Shown here: positions 1-6,965 of the stretch, piece by piece | Layout of the letters: each line of letters opens with the position of its first letter | Numbering within the stretch: the stretch's first letter is position 1 | Source of the DNA: a virus | Strand: one strand, 5' to 3' | Virus genome (UHGV): UHGV-0228105 | DNA length: 6,965 nt | Program-made: the position numbers and the translations under genes | The notes under the pieces: model-generated | Database searches by the model: none | What the model was told of the DNA's origin: nothing | What the model saw: only the letters and a program-made list of their open reading frames with translations

Positions 1-1825
1 CAATGCGGACCTTCCAGGCCACACCGTCAACAATAAAGCCCTCCTGCTGCTCAAGGTAAGGCTCGTCATTACCGTCAAGATAAGCCACCTCAATTGTGTC
101 CGTTCCCTGTGCTGAAAGCATGTACCATTGCTTATCACTGACTTCATCAAGGCGGGGATCGACAATAATATCCAGTTGTTTGTGGTACGGGTTATATGAA
201 CCACTGTTTGTATCGGCACCAAAAGGCGTGGTTGAGTTAACCATTTGCAACGCTCTGTCTTCCAGAGCCGCTGGAACAAGAAGGAATTTTGGCACAATAT
301 TCAGCACTTCACCGTTTTCATCCCTCTGTGTGCGCATTGCACGGCGTGCAATGCCAAGCCCTGTAGTGCTGACTCCGTTATCAATATCATTTCCGTGTTT
401 TTTGCTGAACAGCGGTATACCGTCAGAAAGCTTTGTGTTTCCTGTCAGCACCAGATGAACCAGATTACCCACCGTTCTGGCGGCTGCTCGCCCCATTGCC
501 TGTGGGATAACTGTTAACTGATTCAGGTCATCGTTAATAATCGCCTGTCGGGTAATGCTGAAAATATTTCCGTAAGTTGCCAGCGCGATTGGTTCGCCAC
601 GGTCACTGGTGGTGATGTATTTATATTCCGCGCCTTCCGGCACTTTGTTTAATGTAGAGAAGCCATTCAGGCCAACACGACGTGCCTCATGGAAGTTTGA
701 CAATGAACCTTTTTTCGTCCACTGGCGGAACGTTTCGCCGCTGTGTTCCCATCCGGCAAGCACGGATTTTTCAGCACCACCAGCAAGGATATAAGTAAAA
801 TCGCTGCTGCTGTGGGTGAATGCCGCGTTTACTATCTGCGAGCGTGTGCTGTAGCTGCCTGTGCTTATGCCGCGATGGGTTAATGATGCCTGCGCCATAT
901 CGAAAAGGCTCATCATGGCGTAAGGGTTGCCGCGTTCTGCCTGCTCGTGCCCAAGACGCGCATTAAGCCCCTGACGCATTGCATCACCCGTTATGTTGCC
1001 GTTATCCGTATATGCGTAGTAAAGATTTGCAGGTGTGGTTTTGTTTGTCGGTGTCGATTCTTTACCCATAGTGAGTAAAAGACGTTCGCGCGCATCCTCA
1101 ACGCTACACCCTGAATCAGCAAGACAACTTATAGCCAGGTCGTTATATCTTCCGTTGAACGTACCGAACAACTCACGGATCCCGTTGAGTCGTTCCTGTT
1201 CTCCGCTGGTAGTTTTCTGGCTGATCATGTTCTTAATATTTTCCGGCATATTTGAAAAATCTCCGATTCGTTTTGATTCAATTCGGGCCATTGCTGTAAT
1301 CGCGGGTATAACCTCGTCTGCGAAGCCGTTAGCCCTGCACTCGTTGCCATCCATCCAGGTTTCCGCCTCCATCATGGCGGTGATTTCCTGTTTGCTCTTC
1401 CCCGTTCTTCCGGCGTAGGTTTCCGCCATCGTGTCGCCCATCTTGTCCATCAGGTCGGCAAAGCGGCGAACATCTCCCGACACTCCGGCTGTAACGCCAC
1501 GGGGGGCGTGTATCATCATCATTGCGTTTTCAGGCATAACGATGTGATCGCCACACATGGCAATAAACGAGGCCATAGAAGCCGCCATACCTTCAATGTG
1601 TACGATTTTTTTTGCCGGATGATTTTTCAGGGCGTTATAGATAGCCAGCCCTTCAAAGATGTCACCACCTGGTGAATGAATGCTCAGATGGATTTCAGAC
1701 ACATTACCGCACGCGTTGATCTCGTCAGTAAGTGCCGATGCCTTTACACCGTACCCGCCGATCTCGTCATAAATGCGCACATGTGCAACATCTGACATAG
1801 CCTTAATGGAAAACCATGTTTTCAT
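1..1825 (-). CDS. ClpP-like (S14) prohead serine protease fused in-frame to a phage major capsid protein; start complete, 3' end runs off the left edge of the window
   Basis: Minus-strand frame is open from the ATG at 1825-1823 down to position 2 (608 codons, no stop). It is absent from the ORF track only because the stop lies outside the window. The N-terminal ~190 aa carry ClpP-type motifs (IHLSIHSPGGDIFEGLAIYNAL; GMAASMASFIAMCGD with a candidate catalytic Ser; MMMIHAPRGVTAG; ECRANGFADEVI). The C-terminal part (TYGNIFSITRQAIINDDLNQLTVIPQAMGRAAARTVGNLV ... PFGADTNSGSYNPY ... EVAYLDGNDEPYLEQQEGFIVDGVAWKVRI) looks like a phage major capsid protein. The start overlaps the upstream stop as ATGA. 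Plus-strand ORFs in 96-1418 are antisense artefacts. Confidence 0.8.
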   Translation of the reverse strand, partial: MKTWFSIKAMSDVAHVRIYDEIGGYGVKASALTDEINACGNVSEIHLSIHSPGGDIFEGLAIYNALKNHPAKKIVHIEGMAASMASFIAMCGDHIVMPENAMMMIHAPRGVTAGVSGDVRRFADLMDKMGDTMAETYAGRTGKSKQEITAMMEAETWMDGNECRANGFADEVIPAITAMARIESKRIGDFSNMPENIKNMISQKTTSGEQERLNGIRELFGTFNGRYNDLAISCLADSGCSVEDARERLLLTMGKESTPTNKTTPANLYYAYTDNGNITGDAMRQGLNARLGHEQAERGNPYAMMSLFDMAQASLTHRGISTGSYSTRSQIVNAAFTHSSSDFTYILAGGAEKSVLAGWEHSGETFRQWTKKGSLSNFHEARRVGLNGFSTLNKVPEGAEYKYITTSDRGEPIALATYGNIFSITRQAIINDDLNQLTVIPQAMGRAAARTVGNLVHLVLTGNTKLSDGIPLFSKKHGNDIDNGVSTTGLGIARRAMRTQRDENGEVLNIVPKFLLVPAALEDRALQMVNSTTPFGADTNSGSYNPYHKQLDIIVDPRLDEVSDKQWYMLSAQGTDTIEVAYLDGNDEPYLEQQEGFIVDGVAWKVRI

Positions 1826-2016
1826 AGCCAGGCTCCTAACGTTGCCTGGTACCAGTATTCAACCGCGCTGCGTGTGATTTGTCCTTTCGTGGGTACTGGC
1901 ATACCCGGGTGATTATCTTTGATGAACTGCTGATAGCGTTCGATCTTCTCCATAGTTCCGGCGTCTATGTGTACCGTGGCACTTTTATCCGGCTTTCTGG
2001 TGTTGTTCTCTGGCAT
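1822..2016 (-). CDS. Small protein (64 aa), possibly ribbon-helix-helix DNA-binding; translationally coupled to the protease-capsid gene
   Basis: ORF-track ORF 1822..2049 (75 aa). The internal ATG at 2016-2014 has a near-ideal Shine-Dalgarno (GGAGGCGGA, 7 nt spacer), so the start is placed there; 2049 is the alternative. Sequence MPENNTRKPDKSATVHIDAGTMEKIERYQQFIKDNHPGMPVPTKGQITRSAVEYWYQATLGAWL fits a strand-helix-loop-helix pattern. Stop TGA overlaps the downstream ATG (ATGA). Confidence 0.55.
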   Translation of the reverse strand: MPENNTRKPDKSATVHIDAGTMEKIERYQQFIKDNHPGMPVPTKGQITRSAVEYWYQATLGAWL

Positions 2017-2211
2017 AAATCCGCCTCCGTTTTGATTAACGGGCATCATTATTGATCGATAAAAGTAATAGATAAATCATTTTCTACCTGAAAATCAGAT
2101 TATGTTTTTTCTGATTATTCTCAGAGAGGCAAAGCCATTGACGCATTTTTGCTATTGAAGCAATATTAAGACTCGTCATCCTGGCGATAAAAACTCCTTT
2201 GTCGTGTAAAA

Positions 2212-2474: not shown

Positions 2475-2750
2475 TTAGCTGTCCTGGTAATTGCGCCATA
2501 TTTCATCGCTTACACCATCTATACCCATTTCAGCATAAGTGCGATCTACTGCCTTTCTCAGGTCACCGAAGTTATCCGGCGGCTCCGGTGGCCTCTGTGC
2601 CTTCCTGGAACATTCCAGCCGTCGCATCGTAACCTGATGCCGTTCCTTGTCTGTCTCCACCAGCAGCATGACTTCACCCCATCGCGCCGCCGCCCTCCGG
2701 TAAAAGCCTTTCGCCTCGAGTTCCTCCGCTATGCGGTCATGTACCATCAC
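2475..2750 (-). CDS. Small protein (91 aa), tentatively PerC/Pch-family transcriptional activator-like
   Basis: ORF-track ORF; overlaps the upstream ORF by 14 nt and is followed by a terminator. N-terminal segment DRIAEELEAKGFYRRAAARWGEVML matches my recollection of the PerC-family signature (acidic helix then RRAA-RW). This is recalled, not searched. Confidence 0.5.
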   Translation of the reverse strand: MMVHDRIAEELEAKGFYRRAAARWGEVMLLVETDKERHQVTMRRLECSRKAQRPPEPPDNFGDLRKAVDRTYAEMGIDGVSDEIWRNYQDS

Positions 2751-3021
2751 CTGACTCTCCGGTTTTTACGTTGATGGTTGTTACCTGTTCCGCTTCGGCA
2801 ATCTCCCGTTCTGTCATCGTGGCAAAGTTTGCCGACGCCGTGGTCATGAATGCGCTTATCAGTTCGGGATGTTCCTTCGCGTATCCTTCCCCGGCGTGGC
2901 GGTCTATCGTTCTGATTGCCACCTTTAATGCGTGCTCTGTCATGTCTAACGCGCGATATTTCGGTTCTGTTCTGTCTCTGCATTTTTTGAGTGATTTGTT
3001 AAATTTCCCTGAAGTGTGCAT
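2737..3021 (-). CDS. Hypothetical protein (94 aa)
   Basis: ORF-track ORF with protein-like composition. Purine-rich GAGGGGG lies ~11 nt upstream of the ATG at 3021. Sits immediately downstream of the iteron region. A competing 78-aa arginine-rich ORF (2747..2983) in another frame is judged spurious. Confidence 0.5.
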   Translation of the reverse strand: MHTSGKFNKSLKKCRDRTEPKYRALDMTEHALKVAIRTIDRHAGEGYAKEHPELISAFMTTASANFATMTEREIAEAEQVTTINVKTGESGDGT

Positions 3022-3060: not shown

Positions 3061-3300
3061 ACCTCTCCCCCTCTACCCCTTCTACCCAGCACCACCAAAA
3101 GCCAGCAATGGCGCACCTTTCAGCAGGGTAGAGGGCTTTTAATCCCCTTCTACCCGCCCTCTACCTGTCTACCTGGAATTGATAAAATCAGGTAGAAGAG
3201 GTAGAGGGCTTTTATTAGCCTTCGACCTGGCCCTCTACCCACCTATCATATTGAATAATATATATTTATTTACTTCAGGTAGAGGAGGTAGAGGGCTTTT
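3061..3300. repeat. Iteron array with AT-rich core: candidate origin of replication
   Basis: At least 11 copies of a 9-mer family in both orientations. GGTAGAGGGCTTTT occurs at 3127-3140, 3200-3213 and 3287-3300; degenerate copies GGTAGAAGA at 3191-3199 and GGTAGAGGA at 3278-3286. Inverse copies CCCTCTACC at 3069-3077, 3157-3165 and 3231-3239; CTTCTACCC at 3079-3087 and 3147-3155; TCTACC at 3168-3173. A 30-bp almost pure AT stretch lies at 3245-3275. The array ends 9 nt from the primase stop codon. Confidence 0.6.
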
Positions 3301-3308
3301 GCAAAAAA

Positions 3309-5057
3309 TTATAAAAACGCGTCACAATCGTCTGTTGTTATTGCGTTAGTCTGCGTTACTCCCTTAACTTTCCGAGTAATATATTCATGACCGTAAACTT
3401 TCGCAGCGGGTTTCATAGCTTTGCTGAACTCAGCCACGTTTAGCGGCTTGTTCCTTCCGGCGTATGCCATAAACGCCAGATAGACGCGGTAAAGGCTGTT
3501 TCTGGTCGTGTACCTGGAAGAGTCACCACCACCGCCCATCATCAGGCCGTGCGCTTCCTCCAGAAAATTAAGAAACTGGCAAAACTCAATAACCGGATCC
3601 GTTTGCTGCTTTATCGCCAGTGCTTCATCACCGTCACGCTGTTCCAGTAGTAAAGCCCGCGCCTTTTCAGGGTCGGCAAAGTTCGCCAGTAATCGGCGGA
3701 TAATGACGGGGATTTCAGCCGCGATTTTTTCCGGTAGCTCCCTGTCTTTTTCAGCCTCACTGACGATATTGTCGAAACGGAAAATCACGCGACGACGTGC
3801 CACGCCTCCGGCCCGTTCGGTGAATATCATCGGGTTGTTGTTGGTTGCCAGCACAACCGCCCTGATTACCGCTGTGAAACGCTTCTCATATTTCGGGTTA
3901 ATTTCCACGGGGTCACCGCCCGTGATTTTCTTGATGCCCGTGCCTTCGCCTGTATATTTCGGCTGGTCAGCCAGGACAATAAGCCGACTCCCGACAACCT
4001 GCGCACGCCCACCAGCATCATCAAGCGATGTCATCTCAGCACTTACCGTGTTCTGTTTCCCTGCCAGAAGGCTGGCTATATGCGTAAATGTACTCTTGCC
4101 GCTCCCGCCCTCTCCTGTGGCCTCAATAAACATCTGCCAGTCGTACCGGTTCGCCATAATCATGTACAGCGCGGCACATATACGCATCATCTTGCGCGGG
4201 TCTTTTCCGGCTGCGTGCTCAAGCCATTTATGAAAGTTTGGCGCGTTGTCGCGAATGTTCTCCCCTGGTGCTGGTGGCGTGTACTCAATGCCGTTGTGCG
4301 TGGTGATCCAGTTCTCCGGCGTGTGCGGGGAAAACTCCCCCGTTTTCAGGTCAAGCGCACCATTGGCGAACGGCAGCAAATCGCCGGACGGCTCGCCCAT
4401 TGGTTCGGCAATAACTTTTAACGCTTCCACGGCGTTATTGATTACGCGCTTGCTGAACGTGGCTTTATGTTCTGAATAAATCGCCACCATTTCGCGGCTC
4501 AGCTCCATTGTGCTGACCGGGCACCATACCCCGCCGCGCCAGATGTGGACGATTTCACTTTCCGGATCCACACAAACGCCATCAAATCGACCAGCAAGCA
4601 TCTGTGCGCGCTCACTGTCTGCCATTTGTGCCAGTTGCGTATTTTTCTGCTCCGGCATGGTAATCCCTGCGGCAATATTTTCACGCTCAGCATTCAGATA
4701 GCGCCGCCAGTTTTCACACTTCTGACCGTGCATTCCTTCTGGGTAAAAATTCGCATCCTGAATATCTGCCACCGCCAGCTTCTGACCAATCTTTTTGGTC
4801 TCCACTAAATCCAGTTCTCCGGCCTGGTACAGCCTTACGCGCTTTTTCCCATCCGGAACAATTTTCAGCGCATCAAGTTCGGCAAGCTGCTTTGGCCCAA
4901 GCCACACAGGCGGCACATTATCGCCGGATGCGGGGCCATCCTGTTCCTGCCATTGTTCCGCGTGTGACCAGGCATCACTACCCGCAAAGATAATTACCTC
5001 TGTGTCTTTGTGTTTTATTCCGCGTGGCTGTTTTTTTACGTTCGGTGCCAGTTTCAC
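3309..5057 (-). CDS. Primase-helicase / replication initiator of the D5 / P4-alpha (SF3 NTPase) family, 582 aa
   Basis: Long ORF-track ORF. Walker A GEGGSGKST followed by a hydrophobic stretch ending in acidic residue (RLIVLADQ), typical of phage/plasmid primase C-terminal NTPase domains. Start is GTG at 5057-5055 with AGGGG ~8 nt upstream, overlapping the upstream stop (GTGA). Stop TAA at 3311-3309. An N-terminal primase catalytic motif is not recognisable by eye. Confidence 0.88.
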   Translation of the reverse strand: MKLAPNVKKQPRGIKHKDTEVIIFAGSDAWSHAEQWQEQDGPASGDNVPPVWLGPKQLAELDALKIVPDGKKRVRLYQAGELDLVETKKIGQKLAVADIQDANFYPEGMHGQKCENWRRYLNAERENIAAGITMPEQKNTQLAQMADSERAQMLAGRFDGVCVDPESEIVHIWRGGVWCPVSTMELSREMVAIYSEHKATFSKRVINNAVEALKVIAEPMGEPSGDLLPFANGALDLKTGEFSPHTPENWITTHNGIEYTPPAPGENIRDNAPNFHKWLEHAAGKDPRKMMRICAALYMIMANRYDWQMFIEATGEGGSGKSTFTHIASLLAGKQNTVSAEMTSLDDAGGRAQVVGSRLIVLADQPKYTGEGTGIKKITGGDPVEINPKYEKRFTAVIRAVVLATNNNPMIFTERAGGVARRRVIFRFDNIVSEAEKDRELPEKIAAEIPVIIRRLLANFADPEKARALLLEQRDGDEALAIKQQTDPVIEFCQFLNFLEEAHGLMMGGGGDSSRYTTRNSLYRVYLAFMAYAGRNKPLNVAEFSKAMKPAAKVYGHEYITRKVKGVTQTNAITTDDCDAFL

Positions 5058-5353
5058 TTTTTGCCCCTGAATCCGTTAATCATGTTTTTCATCTTCTGAA
5101 TATTGGCGCGTGCTTTCTCCCCGCTGGTTGGCTTACTGCGGGGCGCTGCCTGTACCAGAGAAAAATCACGCCGGAACTGATAAACAGGCATCACGCAATC
5201 ATATTCGTAGCCTTCACGGCGGTAAGTGACGCGCCGATCCTCCACTCCCTTAATCATTACCGTGCCACCGTACTGGTCGCGGTAAATATCGCCGCGCGTA
5301 AATTTAGGGTGAGTGTTGCCACTGGCAGTTAAGCCAGAAATTTTCTTTTTCAT
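5054..5353 (-). CDS. Hypothetical small basic protein (99 aa)
   Basis: ORF-track ORF. ATG at 5353-5351 lies 5 nt after the stop of the upstream ORF; its own stop overlaps the primase GTG start. Sequence MKKKISGLTASGNTHPKFTRGDIYRDQYGGTVMIKGVEDRRVTYRREGYEYDCVMPVYQF... has no family I can name. Confidence 0.55.
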   Translation of the reverse strand: MKKKISGLTASGNTHPKFTRGDIYRDQYGGTVMIKGVEDRRVTYRREGYEYDCVMPVYQFRRDFSLVQAAPRSKPTSGEKARANIQKMKNMINGFRGKK

Positions 5354-5358
5354 GGTTT

Positions 5359-5586
5359 TTATTCCGCGTTTATTTTTTTATCGTGAATTTCGATCGCTTT
5401 ATTTAATTCGGTGATTACCGTATCGAGTAATGAAATAAACGCACCAGCAAGATTAGATTCACGTTCATCTTCCGGCGCATCACTTAAACCATCCAGCCAG
5501 ATAAGCAATATTTGCCGCAAGCATTCACTGTTAGTCAGTGCGTTTTCTGCATGGCTCATTGATTTAAAATAATGGTCATCATGCAT
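5359..5586 (-). CDS. Hypothetical small acidic protein (75 aa from the proposed start)
   Basis: ORF-track ORF 5359..5631. Start moved to the ATG at 5586-5584 (MHDDHYFK...), which has AGGGG upstream and overlaps the upstream stop (ATGCATGA). Confidence 0.5.
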   Translation of the reverse strand: MHDDHYFKSMSHAENALTNSECLRQILLIWLDGLSDAPEDERESNLAGAFISLLDTVITELNKAIEIHDKKINAE

Positions 5587-5815
5587 GGTGCGCCCCTTGA
5601 ATATCTGCGGTAAGAATTTTACCTGCCTCATTCAGCGCCATATCAGCACTAAGTTGCATAACCGCCAGCGAATGAGGAACGAAAGCCCCTGCATATTCTG
5701 TTTCACTGGTGGCGTGCTTATGCGCCCTGTCAGCAATAACAGAAATATCAATAAGCGCGAGCATCAGCGTAGTGAGCGCGGCGGCGGTTGCGTCCGGACG
5801 GATGTTATTGCACAT
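5579..5815 (-). CDS. Hypothetical small protein (78 aa from the proposed start)
   Basis: ORF-track ORF 5579..5872. Start placed at the ATG at 5815-5813 (MCNNIRPD...), preceded by GGAGGGG with an 8-nt spacer and overlapping the upstream stop at 5807-5805. The upstream ATG at 5872 lacks a Shine-Dalgarno. Confidence 0.5.
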   Translation of the reverse strand: MCNNIRPDATAAALTTLMLALIDISVIADRAHKHATSETEYAGAFVPHSLAVMQLSADMALNEAGKILTADIQGAHHA

Positions 5816-6038
5816 GGTGTACCCCTCCGCATTTTTTTTCGTTAGAAATAAGCGTTCTTCTTTCCTGTTCATCGCTCAGGAATACGCAGACCTCACCGCT
5901 AAGGCGTTTAAGTAAGCCGATGATTGCCCCTGATTCGCTGTCGGTCATCATGCCAGGGTAATCCTCTGCCAGTGCGCAAATAACTTCGATTTGGTGGGCG
6001 CGTTCTGCTGCCTGTTGTAGTGTGATTTCCTGGCTCAT
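5805..6038 (-). CDS. Hypothetical small protein (77 aa from the proposed start)
   Basis: ORF-track ORF 5805..6095. Start placed at the ATG at 6038-6036 (MSQEITLQQAAERAHQIEV...), preceded by AGGAGGT at about -8 and overlapping the upstream stop as ATGA. Confidence 0.55.
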   Translation of the reverse strand: MSQEITLQQAAERAHQIEVICALAEDYPGMMTDSESGAIIGLLKRLSGEVCVFLSDEQERRTLISNEKKCGGVHHVQ

Positions 6039-6229
6039 AAGCCTACCTCCTGACGAATACGGGCGGCAAATACAGCAACACAACCGGACGGGCAACGGTT
6101 ACGCGCTTCGCGTTCCGTCCAGGCGGTTACGTGGATGATTTGAGATTCTCCGGCACTCAGGGCCAGAAAACGCCACACAAAGGCCGTTTGTGTGTGTGCT
6201 AGTCGTGGAGTATGATTTACGGCAACCAT
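6035..6229 (-). CDS. Hypothetical small protein (64 aa), first gene of the minus-strand operon
   Basis: ORF-track ORF. GAGAGGT Shine-Dalgarno ~9 nt upstream of the ATG at 6229. Contains a Cys pair (RNRCPSGC). Lies ~95 nt downstream of the predicted promoter. Confidence 0.5.
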   Translation of the reverse strand: MVAVNHTPRLAHTQTAFVWRFLALSAGESQIIHVTAWTEREARNRCPSGCVAVFAARIRQEVGL

Positions 6230-6308
6230 AAATTTACCTCTCTATAGTGTTTGTGGTTAGAGGCCCTGCTAGTGGTAGCGACACTTGCGGGGCTTTGCAT
6301 TTATGAAC

Positions 6309-6361
6309 CCTGAGCAGCTCAGGTGTGGCCCACTATATGTTTTAGGTGTGGCCCACGTCAA
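6309..6361 (-). promoter_or_regulatory. Control region: predicted sigma70-like promoter for the minus-strand operon, overlapped by a perfect palindrome and two 13-bp direct repeats
   Basis: On the minus strand: -35 TTGACG (plus 6356-6361), 18-nt spacer, -10 TATAGT (plus 6332-6337). Direct repeats AGGTGTGGCCCAC at 6321-6333 and 6344-6356, each containing GTGG-N-CCAC, with 23 bp between starts. Perfect palindrome CCTGAGC-A-GCTCAGG at 6309-6323, at or just downstream of the predicted start site. Confidence 0.45.
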
Positions 6362-6422
6362 GGGTTTTATTTGCGCTTTTTCTGTGTATACTGTCCCCCA
6401 CCAATCAACAGGAGAAACAGCA

Positions 6423-6602
6423 ATGGCAACGGGTACAACAAACGCAAAATCACAAGCTTTAAAGGCTCGTGTACCGCATGAAATAGTTGACGCAATGGAA
6501 TCAGTGAAAGACTCAGGCGAAAGCACATCACAATTTATCATTACGTCAATGCAAGGCGAGATCAAACGCCGCCAGCGCCGCAAGGCCAAAGAAGCGGAAT
6601 AA
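6423..6602 (+). CDS. Small ribbon-helix-helix (CopG/Arc-like) DNA-binding protein, 59 aa; candidate repressor
   Basis: ATG at 6423 preceded by AGGAGA (6410-6415, 7-nt spacer). Sequence MATGTTNAKSQALKARVPHEIVDAMESVKDSGESTSQFIITSMQGEIKRRQRRKAKEAE fits strand (LKARVP), helix (HEIVDAMESVKDSG), helix (STSQFIITSMQGEI). It is the only plus-strand gene, divergent from the operon and convergent with alpA. The overlapping 153-aa minus ORF (6269..6730) is judged spurious. Confidence 0.55.
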   Translation: MATGTTNAKSQALKARVPHEIVDAMESVKDSGESTSQFIITSMQGEIKRRQRRKAKEAE

Positions 6603-6690
6603 TCCACCAGCAAACCACCACACTGATCACATTGCCCACCAGCCAGCAAATCGCTATGATGTTCGGGCTTATGTTTAGTGTTTTCCCATT

Positions 6691-6721
6691 GGCGACCTCT
6701 GATCCGGGTCGCCTTTGTTTT
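6691..6721 (+). terminator. Rho-independent terminator downstream of the RHH gene
   Basis: GGCGACC (6691-6697) / GGTCGCC (6707-6713) form a 7-bp perfect stem with a 9-nt loop, followed by TTTGTTTT (6714-6721). No U-tract on the minus-strand side, so it is unidirectional. Confidence 0.5.
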
Positions 6722-6740
6722 ATGTGTCATATGCTCCCCT

Positions 6741-6965
6741 TTACGCTGCCTTACCTGAATTAATGCGATCCCGGCTTTTAACCCATTCCATAACCTCGGA
6801 CAGCAGCCAACCTACAGAACGACCGCCCAGATTAAGGCGTGACGGAAATCGCCCTTTTTTCTCCAGTTCGTAGCGTGTAGTACGGCACACTCCAGTTAAC
6901 TTACGACATTCATCCTCACGGATTACGCGATCTGATAGTGATTGAAATTGTGTATTTTGATTCAT
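6741..6965 (-). CDS. alpA: AlpA-family (MerR-type HTH, excisionase-like) transcriptional regulator
   Basis: Translation contains the AlpA-type core CRKLTGVCRTTRYELEKKGRFPSRLNLGGRSVGWLLSEVMEWVKSR (compare the recalled pattern L-x-R-S-T-I-Y-x-L-x-x-G-x-FP-x-P-x-x-LGGR-x-V-GW-x-x-SE-V-x-x-W). The ATG falls exactly at the window edge (6965-6963), so the true N-terminus could lie outside the window. Confidence 0.85.
   Translation of the reverse strand: MNQNTQFQSLSDRVIREDECRKLTGVCRTTRYELEKKGRFPSRLNLGGRSVGWLLSEVMEWVKSRDRINSGKAA

What the first reader, a model, noticed from the sequence alone, without database searches (positions are those of the whole stretch)
5054..6229. Five-gene cassette of small, coupled, unrecognised ORFs between the regulator and the primase
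Five ORFs of 64-99 aa are packed on the minus strand with overlapping or near-abutting junctions (ATGA, ATGTGCAATAA, ATGCATGA, a 5-nt gap, then GTGA into the primase). Each proposed start has a Shine-Dalgarno, except the last (5353), whose upstream sequence is only a weak GGAA and which sits 5 nt after the preceding stop. I cannot assign any of them to a family by eye. Tight coupling implies co-expression at the front of the early operon. In mobile elements this position often holds regulators, replication-accessory factors, or anti-defence / helper-interference proteins. This is where I would look first for something undescribed.
Basis: partly seen in the sequence, partly recalled or inferred. 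Interest (0 to 1): 0.6.

Follow-up and report, generated by a model that had tools for sequence, protein, structure and literature searches.

The report
Small early genes of a PICI
The five small back-to-back genes are real and form the front of the replication operon of an E. coli-type phage satellite (a PICI): the first is a homologue of the phage P1 cell-division inhibitor Icd, the last is the known virulence regulator RgdR, and the three between them are swappable helical proteins that nobody has characterised.

Summary
Five minus-strand ORFs tile 5054-6229 with junctions of -4, -11, -8, +5 and -4 nt. The same junctions recur in about 80 related loci. All five evolve under purifying selection in the proposed frame only.

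The window is an EcCICFT073-type Gram-negative PICI: AlpA, the cassette, a P4/D5-type primase, ori iterons, PerC, and a ClpP-protease/capsid fusion.

"Unrecognised" is only partly right.
- O1 is an Icd-like protein (NF033153) and a true homologue of phage P1 Icd (hhalign 96.6%).
- O5 is an 84%-identical, full-length orthologue of RgdR (ECs1581, DUF4222). It keeps the RGD motif. RgdR is a published activator of LEE type III secretion, reported in all analysed E. coli PICIs.
- O2-O4 are acidic helical proteins restricted to satellites. They fall in catalogued PHROG families of unknown function, and no search gave them a domain, defence, sequence or fold match.

The slot is mosaic. Icd-like, O4, RgdR and the replicase are near-constant, while O2, O3 and alternative genes are shuffled. 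A sister version of this six-gene block (ECOR61) was reported as a phage-triggered growth-arrest system, with the Icd-like protein as the likely effector.

Verdict: a new member of a known kind, of modest interest. The real unknowns are O2-O4 and what RgdR does for the island itself.

The parts
6035..6229 (-). O1, 64 aa, basic (pI 10.2). Icd-like protein, a homologue of the phage P1 cell-division inhibitor Icd. First gene of the operon.
   Evidence: NF033153 at 65 bits against a cutoff of 25. The family profile matches P1 Icd with hhalign 96.6%, E 5e-10. 92% identical to Sakai ECs1577. dN/dS 0.40. The AF2 model is beta-beta-alpha-beta with pLDDT 70.
5805..6038 (-). O2, 77 aa, acidic (pI 5.0). 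Function unknown. A variable member of the slot (family F6).
   Evidence: phrog_1478 at 3e-28. 100% identical over 74 aa to EcCICFT073 C_RS06960 and 53% to Sakai ECs1579. Present in 27 of 80 loci. Only 33 representative clusters among 1.84e9 proteins. dN/dS 0.28.
5579..5815 (-). O3, 78 aa, acidic (pI 5.6), with a hydrophobic N-terminal helix. Function unknown. A variable member of the slot (family F5).
   Evidence: phrog_5146 at 2e-34 and phrog_2512. 42% identical to EcCICFT073 C_RS06965. Present in 35 of 80 loci, and fused to family F9 in 6 loci. dN/dS 0.53. Maximum KD19 hydrophobicity 1.97 at residue 10.
5359..5586 (-). O4, 75 aa, acidic (pI 4.6), a two-helix hairpin. Function unknown. A near-core member of the slot (family F2).
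   Evidence: phrog_2196 at 1e-23. Present in 71 of 80 loci. 662 homologues, none with a Pfam domain. AF2 pLDDT 90.1 with helices at 4-33 and 38-74. No Foldseek PDB hit at E<=1e-3. dN/dS 0.45.
5054..5353 (-). O5, 99 aa, basic (pI 10.3). RgdR orthologue (DUF4222). Its stop overlaps the primase start (GTGA).
   Evidence: PF13973 at 84.5 bits. 84% identical to ECs1581/RgdR and 82% to c1493, over the full length, with R20-G21-D22, Q27, K35 and R61 conserved (PMC3378721). The junction to the replicase is -4 in 78 of 80 loci.
3309..5057 (-). Primase/replicase (Pri-Rep) of the island, 582 aa. It is the last gene coupled to the cassette.
   Evidence: D5_N, DUF5906 and Pox_D5 domains. TIGR01613 P4-family primase at 110 bits. 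phrog_864 at 9e-166.
6332..6361 (-). Promoter-like site TTGACG-18-TATAGT, about 100 nt upstream of O1. It is the candidate operon promoter.
   Evidence: Consensus scan gives 10 of 12 matches. An identical site lies at the same relative position in EcCICFT073. Function is inferred, not shown.
6321..6356 (.). Two perfect copies of AGGTGTGGCCCAC, 23 nt apart. Each contains the palindrome GTGG-C-CCAC, and the pair overlaps the promoter-like site. Candidate operator.
   Evidence: The same pair occurs in 8 of 87 loci, including EcCICFT073.
6423..6602 (+). YlcI/YnfO-family small basic protein. It is transcribed divergently from the cassette and convergently with alpA.
   Evidence: NF041551 at 66 bits. 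phrog_949. Conserved in EcCICFT073 and in a Serratia island.
6741..6965 (-). AlpA-family regulator. In EcCICFT073 it is the activator of the PICI cycle.
   Evidence: PF05930 at 60 bits. Function comes from PMC6092414.
3066..3300 (.). ori-like iteron field just 3' of the primase: about 10 copies of GGTAGAGGGC/GCCCTCTACC around an AT-rich centre.
   Evidence: The position matches the PICI ori described in PMC6092414.

Best explanation
The five ORFs are the promoter-proximal genes of the early/replication operon of an EcCICFT073-type Gram-negative phage-inducible chromosomal island (PICI).

Proposed sequence of events:
1. A helper phage induces alpA. This is shown for EcCICFT073 and inferred here.
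2. AlpA switches on a promoter at about 6361-6332. That promoter is overlapped by a pair of 13-nt repeats and faces a divergent YlcI/YnfO-type gene.
3. A polycistronic mRNA is translated by ribosome hand-over through the overlapping stop/start junctions, down to the primase.

The products fall into three classes:
- O1 is a basic 64-aa homologue of the phage P1 division inhibitor Icd. It most likely arrests host division or growth while the island replicates. In a sister island it is the likely effector of phage-triggered growth arrest.
- O2, O3 and O4 are acidic helical proteins of about 75 aa. They are drawn from a pool that recombines between islands. O4 is near-constant, while O2 and O3 are optional. 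Their role is unknown. The most likely role is modulating or partnering the two basic proteins, or helper-specific functions.
- O5 is RgdR, a basic DUF4222 protein. It is always translationally coupled to whichever replicase the island carries. In EHEC it acts as a co-regulator, activating LEE1/type III secretion and repressing motility.

What is shown: the gene reality, the coupling, the homologies and the mosaic structure. What is inferred: the promoter, AlpA dependence in this island, and the activities of O1-O4.
For: Element identity. The window holds AlpA, a P4/D5-type primase, PerC and a ClpP-protease/capsid fusion. It has ori iterons just 3' of pri. Its gene order matches EcCICFT073 and Sakai Sp7/OI-51.

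Real coupled genes. The junctions are conserved, and dN/dS is 0.28-0.53 in frame against 0.79-1.89 out of frame.

O1. NF033153 at 65 bits. Its family profile matches P1 Icd at 96.6%, E 5e-10. An Icd-like gene is also the first gene in a Serratia island whose primase is only 53% identical. In ECOR61, removing the Icd-like gene abolishes phage-gene-triggered growth arrest. The ECOR61 gene lengths (192 and 186 nt) and overlaps (1 and 8 nt) equal those of Sakai ECs1579/1578/1577.

O5. 84% identical to RgdR, with the RGD motif present. RgdR function comes from PMC3378721. [quoted passage not shown] The junction to the replicase is -4 in 78 of 80 loci. The block precedes four different replicase types.

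AlpA control. AlpA activates the downstream EcCICFT073 genes, and AlpA overexpression gives pri-dependent replication that impairs growth. The promoter-like site and the repeat pair are identical in EcCICFT073.

Mosaic slot. Gene orders were tabulated for 84 loci.
Against: The promoter is only a consensus match. The scan found 2 sites in the region against 3.0 expected by chance. No transcript data exist here.

RgdR phenotypes in EHEC were seen without helper induction. Some expression must therefore be independent of the induced cycle.

O1 and P1 Icd share only about 34% identity over 53 columns, and BLAST does not connect them even at E<=10. The P1-type C4 antisense RNA control is absent. 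No activity has been measured for this subfamily other than in ECOR61, and that locus was matched by geometry, not by sequence.

O2-O4 have no functional evidence at all. In ECOR61, the Tn5 hits in the genes after Icd could be polar effects.
Confidence: 0.75

Rival explanations
1. The block is primarily an abortive-infection or superinfection-exclusion module. The Icd-like protein is a toxin-like effector. The small acidic proteins (O2-O4 and their alternates) act as sensors or gatekeepers that release the effector when particular phage proteins appear. Swapping them changes which phages are sensed.
For: ECOR61 has a six-gene Icd-like...primase block. It causes growth arrest when the T7-group accessory gene orf24 is expressed. 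Suppressor insertions fall in the Icd-like gene and in the next two small genes, one of which belongs to the O2 family by geometry. Removing Icd abolishes the effect. The middle genes are mosaic and restricted to satellites. There is charge complementarity: O1 and O5 have pI about 10.2, and O2-O4 have pI 4.6-5.6.
Against: PADLOC gave no match. dN/dS is below 1, with no sign of diversifying selection. The reconstituted ECOR61 effect was described as muted and needed all six genes including the primase. That fits simple runaway island replication, which is known to harm growth in EcCICFT073. The Tn5 hits may be polar. The ECOR61 sequence was not compared directly.
Confidence: 0.2
2. O4 and O5 (RgdR) are replication accessory factors of the island replicase, for example in ori recognition or loading. 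The effects of RgdR on LEE and motility would then be side effects of a small basic DNA-binding protein.
For: O4 is present in 71 of 80 loci and O5 in 80 of 84. Both are fixed immediately upstream of the replicase, with a -4 coupling in 78 of 80 loci. The same block precedes four unrelated replicase types. RgdR shows weak non-specific DNA binding. In a lambdoid Klebsiella phage, the DUF4222 homologue lies between cro and the replication genes.
Against: The Serratia and Morganella islands have homologous primases (52-53% identical) but lack DUF4222. AlpA-driven EcCICFT073 replication was reported to need pri and int, and no other factor was named. No homology to any known replication protein was found.
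Confidence: 0.2
3. O2-O4 are anti-defence or helper-interference proteins. They would be carried as accessory cargo at the front of the operon.
For: They are small, acidic, fast-turnover, satellite-restricted genes in a recombining slot. Many known anti-defence proteins look like this (own knowledge).
Against: No similarity to any known inhibitor was found by sequence or fold. In EcCICFT073 the interference function maps downstream of the ori (Rpp). O4 is near-core rather than accessory.
Confidence: 0.1
4. Some of the five ORFs are not genes but chance open frames.
For: They are short. O5 has a weak ribosome-binding site. O2-O4 have no Pfam family.
Against: Frame-specific purifying selection. 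PHROG matches from 1e-23 to 1e-34. Conserved junctions. Hundreds of homologues. RgdR has been studied experimentally.
Confidence: 0.02

Closest known systems
Early region of the model Gram-negative PICI EcCICFT073 (alpA ... c1493 ... pri) and of the capsid-forming island Sp7/OI-51 (ECs1577-ECs1582) of E. coli O157:H7 Sakai
   Same: The order is the same: int, alpA, a divergent YlcI/YnfO gene, Icd-like, small ORFs, DUF4222/RgdR, then the replicase with overlapping junctions. The promoter-like site and the 13-nt repeat pair are the same as in EcCICFT073. O2 is 100% identical over 74 aa to the CFT073 protein. O1 is 92% identical to ECs1577. O5 is 82-84% identical to c1493 and ECs1581.
   Different: The combination of middle genes differs. 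CFT073 has six genes, with an extra F9-family gene. Sakai has F13 in place of O3. O3 and O4 here are only 42% and 37% identical to the CFT073 versions. This exact five-gene combination reaches 80% coverage in only 2 of 5426 complete E. coli genomes.
RgdR (ECs1581), prophage-island regulator of LEE type III secretion (Flockhart et al. 2012, PMC3378721)
   Same: O5 is 99 aa long, has a DUF4222 core, keeps RGD at residues 20-22 along with K35, Q27 and R61, and lies directly upstream of the island primase. It is 84% identical.
   Different: There are 16 substitutions, mostly at the two ends, including D10A and H45R as in the ED1a/CFT073 variants. Activity was not tested. The host of this window may not carry LEE.
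Icd of phage P1 (immI operon c4-icd-ant)
   Same: O1 is a small protein of similar size (64 aa against 73 aa in P1) with the shared core FxWRF...A(T)TE(x)EAR...P(x)G...F(x)AR. Both score on NF033153. In both cases it is the first ORF of an operon and overlaps the next gene by 4 nt.
   Different: Identity is only about 34%. There is no C4-type antisense RNA upstream (Rfam). The downstream genes are unrelated: an antirepressor in P1, and small helical proteins plus a replicase here.
Prophage-encoded superinfection-exclusion/PCD system of E. coli ECOR61 (Silas et al., bioRxiv 10.1101/2023.04.06.535777)
   Same: It has six linked genes running from an Icd-like gene to a DNA primase. The lengths and overlaps of its first three genes equal those of Sakai ECs1577-1579, the sister arrangement of this cassette. 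The third gene belongs to the O2 family.
   Different: Its second gene is F13, not O3. Its Icd-like gene is annotated with an N-terminal extension. Equivalence rests on geometry, because the sequence could not be fetched. The trigger (orf24) has not been tested on this island.
Satellite phage P4 and P4-like prophages (Vis/AlpA ... alpha primase)
   Same: They carry an AlpA-family regulator, an Icd-like gene and a P4-family primase in the same relative order. In ECOR15 the order is AlpA, Icd-like, hypothetical, primase.
   Different: The P4 late genes (sid, delta, psu) are absent here. The PICI-type capsid gene, PerC and RgdR are not P4 features.

Membership tests
RgdR / DUF4222 (PF13973) | The DUF4222 domain scores above the Pfam gathering threshold | tested here: met
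   84.5 bits against a cutoff of 27, covering residues 16-68 and the whole 53-position model.
RgdR / DUF4222 (PF13973) | Full-length orthology to ECs1581 (99 aa) | tested here: met
   84% identity over residues 1-99 with no gaps, and 82% to the functional CFT073 variant c1493.
RgdR / DUF4222 (PF13973) | Arg-Gly-Asp at residues 20-22, plus K35 (residues shown to matter for activity) | tested here: met
   R20, G21, D22, Q27, K35 and R61 are all present. RGD occurs in 44 of 81 family members in the related loci. The rest have NGD, PGD, CGD or HGD.
RgdR / DUF4222 (PF13973) | Activates LEE1/type III secretion and represses motility | not testable with these tools
   This needs reporter and secretion assays of the kind used in PMC3378721.
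Icd-like (NF033153; phage P1 Icd) | Scores above the curated NCBIfam cutoff | tested here: met
   65 bits against a cutoff of 25. P1 Icd itself scores 52.6 bits.
Icd-like (NF033153; phage P1 Icd) | Demonstrable homology to P1 Icd itself | tested here: met
   hhalign of the O1 family profile against P1 Icd gives probability 96.6%, E 5.3e-10, over 53 columns. tblastn alone does not find P1 even at E<=10.
Icd-like (NF033153; phage P1 Icd) | Inhibits host cell division when expressed | not testable with these tools
   There is only indirect support. The Icd-like gene is required for growth arrest in ECOR61.
Icd-like (NF033153; phage P1 Icd) | P1-type control by a C4 antisense RNA upstream of icd | tested here: not met
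   An Rfam scan of the whole window at E<=1 found no C4/CI family match. This is a feature of the P1 immI operon rather than of the protein family.
Gram-negative PICI (EcCICFT073 type) | An AlpA regulator followed by a Pri-Rep gene, with an iteron ori immediately 3' | tested here: met
   AlpA PF05930 at 60 bits. The primase has D5_N and TIGR01613. The iteron field lies at 3066-3300, next to the pri stop at 3309.
Gram-negative PICI (EcCICFT073 type) | Size of about 10-15 kb, own integrase, att sites, and no phage tail or lysis genes | tested here: inconclusive
   The window (6965 nt) lacks both ends of the island. Close relatives are islands of about 10 kb with an integrase, lying between host genes.
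Gram-negative PICI (EcCICFT073 type) | Induction and transfer by a helper phage | not testable with these tools
   Shown for EcCICFT073 only.
ECOR61 superinfection-exclusion system (Silas et al.) | A six-gene block from an Icd-like gene to a DNA primase | tested here: met
   O1-O5 plus pri make six genes.
ECOR61 superinfection-exclusion system (Silas et al.) | Same gene families as the ECOR61 locus | tested here: inconclusive
   The ECOR61 contig could not be fetched. Its gene lengths and overlaps equal Sakai ECs1577-1579 (F0/F7, F13, F6). The window shares Icd-like and F6 (O2) but has O3 instead of F13.
Known anti-phage defence or anti-defence proteins | A match to a PADLOC model or to a solved inhibitor structure | tested here: not met
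   PADLOC gave 0 hits for all five. PDB sequence and profile searches were empty. The fold searches gave nothing significant.

The most novel reading that the evidence does not exclude
The recombining set of small acidic helical proteins (O2, O3, O4 and the alternates F9, F13, F16) could be a modular specificity layer. It would bind and gate the two basic proteins of the operon, the Icd homologue and RgdR. Which phage proteins release Icd-mediated growth arrest, or trigger island take-off, would then depend on which small genes an island carries. That would make the front of the PICI early operon a programmable phage sensor-effector system and not just filler.
Probability: 0.15. Interest if true: 0.7.

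Novelty: new member of a known kind. Interest (0 to 1): 0.3.

Why it matters
Parts of this block occur in about a quarter of complete E. coli genomes (1316 of 5426). That makes it one of the commonest satellite gene sets in the species.

It links three things that are usually studied separately: satellite induction and replication, host growth arrest by an Icd homologue, and virulence regulation by RgdR (with PerC further downstream).

Showing that the five ORFs are a known module with two named members saves effort. It also narrows the open questions to specific, testable ones:
- what O2-O4 do;
- why RgdR is welded to every replicase type;
- whether the Icd homologue is the island's growth-arrest effector.

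Tried and rejected
1. Paralogy among the small genes. hhalign between all slot families gave probabilities below 8%, so they are not a detectable tandem paralogue array.

2. C4/CI-type antisense RNA upstream of the icd-like gene. The Rfam E-value scan found only chance miRNA/ctRNA hits.

3. Defence-system membership. PADLOC gave 0 hits.

4. Solved-structure relatives by sequence and by profile. Nothing scored below E 0.01.

5. Fold assignment.
   - The O4 hairpin matched only generic alpha-hairpins. The top hit was T4 Vs.4/Acb2 at E 0.44. This was judged to be no evidence.

6. Phage homologues for context. O1 has a single hit, in a 16.5-kb satellite-like 'phage'. O5 has 16 weak hits.

7. Domains in distant O2 relatives and in the alternate slot families. 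None were found except Bro-N in F12. The 815-aa hit is a repetitive artefact.

8. The terminator-like hairpin inside O1 (6194-6174) as an attenuator. It is absent from EcCICFT073, so it was dropped.

9. First clustering attempt. It collapsed because of fused or extended ORFs. It was redone with trimmed starts and stricter coverage.

10. A structure of O5 could not be predicted.

Full report
**What is in the sequence**

On the minus strand, the ORF listing and the raw sequence show exactly five ORFs tiling 5054-6229.
- O1, 6229..6035, 64 aa
- O2, 6038..5805, 77 aa
- O3, 5815..5579, 78 aa
- O4, 5586..5359, 75 aa
- O5, 5353..5054, 99 aa

The junctions are ATGA, ATGTGCAATAA, ATGCATGA, a 5-nt gap, and GTGA into a GTG-initiated 582-aa primase. 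Just 5 of the 1176 nt are non-coding.

**What element this is**

The neighbours are:
- an AlpA-family regulator (6965..6741);
- a P4/D5-type primase (5057..3309);
- a PerC regulator (2750..2475);
- a ClpP-protease/major-capsid fusion that runs off the left edge.

A field of GGTAGAGGGC iterons lies just 3' of the primase.

About 1690 E. coli records carry related DNA. The best matches are chromosomal islands of about 10 kb with an integrase, lying between host genes. The same front end occurs in the model Gram-negative PICI EcCICFT073 and in Sp7/OI-51 of O157:H7 Sakai. The literature describes this architecture as the Gram-negative PICI (PMC6092414, PMC10111431).

**Are the five ORFs genes?**

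I collected 83 loci around primase homologues plus annotated loci. I then called same-strand ORFs upstream of the primase and clustered them.

All five window ORFs fall in recurring families. Median pairwise dN/dS is 0.40, 0.28, 0.53, 0.45 and 0.32 for O1 to O5 in the proposed frames. In the two shifted frames it is 0.79-1.89. AlpA gives 0.35 by the same method.

The junction geometry is conserved:
- O5/primase is -4 in 78 of 80 loci.
- O4->O5 is +5 in 51 of 64.
- O3->O4 is -8 in 15 of 15.
- O2->O3 is -11 in 11 of 11.

All five hit PHROG families at 1e-23 to 1e-34. They are real, translationally coupled genes.

**O5 is RgdR**

O5 carries DUF4222 (84.5 bits). The only characterised DUF4222 protein is RgdR (ECs1581) of EHEC O157:H7. 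RgdR is a 99-aa basic protein encoded on OI-51. It activates the LEE1 promoter and type III secretion, represses motility, binds DNA weakly and non-specifically, and depends on an Arg-Gly-Asp motif at residues 20-22 (PMC3378721, PMC10877973).

O5 is also 99 aa. It is 84% identical to ECs1581 and 82% to the functional CFT073 variant c1493, without gaps. It keeps R20-G21-D22, Q27, K35 and R61.

[quoted passage not shown] Across my loci the motif is RGD in 44 of 81 members and NGD, PGD, CGD or HGD in the others.

**O1 is a homologue of P1 Icd**

[quoted passage not shown] It is 92% identical to Sakai ECs1577.

BLAST does not connect O1 to P1, even at E<=10. I therefore fetched P1 icd and compared it with a 56-sequence O1 family profile. 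hhalign gave 96.6% probability, E 5e-10, over 53 columns. The shared core is FxWRF...ATExEAR...PxG...FxAR. P1 Icd itself scores 52.6 bits on the same model.

Like O1, P1 icd overlaps its downstream gene by 4 nt. No C4-type antisense RNA is present in the window.

An Icd-like gene is also the first gene after the divergent YlcI-type gene in a Serratia island whose primase is only 53% identical. This position is therefore old.

**O2, O3 and O4**

None has a match in Pfam, NCBIfam, PADLOC or PDB sequences.

All three are acidic, with pI 5.0, 5.6 and 4.6. O1 and O5 are basic, with pI about 10.2.

- **O4:** a profile search found 662 homologues, all 'hypothetical'. AlphaFold2 gives a confident two-helix hairpin (pLDDT 90). 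It matches only generic alpha-hairpins, with no Foldseek hit at E<=1e-3.
- **O2:** an exhaustive HMMER search found only 33 representative clusters among 1.84 billion proteins. None carries a domain.

The families are not detectable paralogues of one another. True phages hardly carry them.

**The slot is a mosaic with a fixed frame**

Among the 80 loci that have DUF4222:
- O4's family is present in 71;
- O3's in 35;
- O2's in 27;
- the alternates F9, F13, F16 and an O3+F9 fusion in 18, 12, 6 and 6.

The number of genes from the Icd-like gene to RgdR ranges from 3 to 9, most often 5.

Parts of the cassette occur in 1316 of 5426 complete E. coli genomes. This exact combination reaches 80% coverage in only 2 of them. 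The block also precedes four different replicase types: primase family, DUF927, RepA helicase and a primase-like DNA-binding protein.

RgdR is absent from the Serratia and Morganella relatives. In a lambdoid Klebsiella phage, the DUF4222 homologue lies between cro and the replication genes.

**How the cassette is probably expressed**

The cassette does not abut alpA. A plus-strand YlcI/YnfO-family gene (6423-6602; NF041551, 66 bits) lies between them.

In the 194-nt divergent region there is a promoter-like TTGACG-18-TATAGT on the minus strand (6361..6332). It is overlapped by two perfect copies of AGGTGTGGCCCAC, 23 nt apart, each containing the palindrome GTGG-C-CCAC. Both the promoter-like site and the repeat pair are identical in EcCICFT073.

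In EcCICFT073, AlpA activates the downstream genes and is induced by helper phages. AlpA overexpression causes pri- and int-dependent runaway replication that harms growth.

Since pri is translationally coupled to O5, I infer that the cassette belongs to that AlpA-dependent unit. The 2019 interference study cloned only genes downstream of the ori. O1-O4 have therefore never been tested in EcCICFT073.

**Published functional link for the block as a unit**

Silas et al. (bioRxiv 10.1101/2023.04.06.535777) report a 'prophage-encoded superinfection exclusion system' in ECOR61. Their findings:
- Expression of a T7-group accessory gene (orf24) arrests growth.
- Tn5 suppressors map to an Icd-like gene and to the next two small genes.
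- Removing the Icd-like gene abolishes the effect.

The two small genes are 186 and 192 nt long, with overlaps of 8 and 1 nt. Those figures are exactly those of Sakai ECs1578 and ECs1579 after ECs1577. They also match the F13 and F6 families in my tabulation, and F6 is the O2 family.

I could not fetch the ECOR61 contig, so this equivalence is an inference from geometry.

**Verdict**

Co-expression at the front of the early operon is right, and the expectation of regulators or host-takeover factors was good. However, two of the five genes are recognisable and one of them has been characterised experimentally.

The best-supported model is a helper/AlpA-driven polycistronic unit. It delivers an Icd-type growth or division inhibitor, exchangeable acidic helical partners, the RgdR co-regulator and the replicase.

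Three points remain unknown and worth testing:
- the role of O2-O4;
- the role of RgdR for the island itself;
- whether the Icd homologue is the effector of growth arrest.

This is a new combination within a known kind of element, of modest interest.

Noticed in passing
window 6321-6356 (repeats) and 6332-6361 (promoter-like site): There are two perfect 13-nt direct repeats, AGGTGTGGCCCAC, 23 nt apart. Each holds the palindrome GTGG-C-CCAC. Together they lie over the -35 and -10 of the cassette's predicted promoter. An identical pair and promoter are present in EcCICFT073 and in 7 other loci. This looks like an operator for AlpA or for the divergent YlcI-type protein. No AlpA binding site is named in the PICI papers I read.
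   Followed up: partly
window 6423-6602 (+): A 59-aa basic YlcI/YnfO-family gene is transcribed divergently from the cassette. It is conserved at this spot in EcCICFT073 and in a Serratia island. By eye the sequence looks like a ribbon-helix-helix protein. The 2018 PICI paper says the existence of a master repressor in Gram-negative PICIs is unclear, and this gene is an untested candidate. A literature search for YlcI/YnfO found nothing functional.
   Followed up: partly
window 6269-6730 (-): A 153-aa ORF lies antisense to the YlcI-type gene. In many relatives the same stretch reads in frame into the Icd-like gene. [quoted passage not shown] Some variants carry a Pfam Ash (PF10554) N-terminus. 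It is unresolved whether these extensions are translated or are annotation artefacts.
   Followed up: no
window 3066-3300: About ten copies of the 10-nt iteron GGTAGAGGGC/GCCCTCTACC, in both orientations, surround an AT-rich centre immediately after the primase stop codon. This is the expected PICI replication origin. It also explains the spurious Rfam miRNA hits at 3215-3298.
   Followed up: partly
window 1-1825 (-), 1822-2049 (-), 2475-2750 (-), 2737-3021 (-): Downstream of the ori the island encodes a 94-aa protein (phrog_1231), a PerC-family regulator (153 bits), a 75-aa protein, and a ClpP-protease/major-capsid fusion (Clp protease plus Phage_capsid_4) that runs off the window. With RgdR, the island therefore carries two families known to regulate LEE. 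The relatives are only about 10 kb long and show no terminase or portal gene, so the role of the capsid fusion is unclear.
   Followed up: partly
E. coli genomes; loci L001-L087: The Icd-like...DUF4222 block is found upstream of four different replicase types: P4-type primase, DUF927, RepA-family helicase and a primase-like DNA-binding protein. The block and the replicase therefore recombine independently, yet RgdR always stays adjacent to the replicase.
   Followed up: partly
loci with family F18 (e.g. L077 6030-6464): In six loci the O3-family gene is fused in frame to the F9-family gene, giving a protein of about 146 aa (phrog_2512). This hints that these two small proteins act together.
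   Followed up: no
window 6174-6194 (-): A terminator-like hairpin (CACACAAACGGCCTTTGTGTG followed by a T-rich tail) lies inside the 5' part of O1. It is not present in the EcCICFT073 Icd variant, so it is probably coincidental.
   Followed up: yes
locus L089 (LR881103.1, 'Escherichia phage vB_KppS-Ant', 16.5 kb): This 'phage' record has an integrase, a regulator, an ORF ending in an Icd-like domain, two small ORFs, a primase, and capsid, portal and terminase genes. It looks like a capsid-forming PICI deposited as a phage.
   Followed up: no
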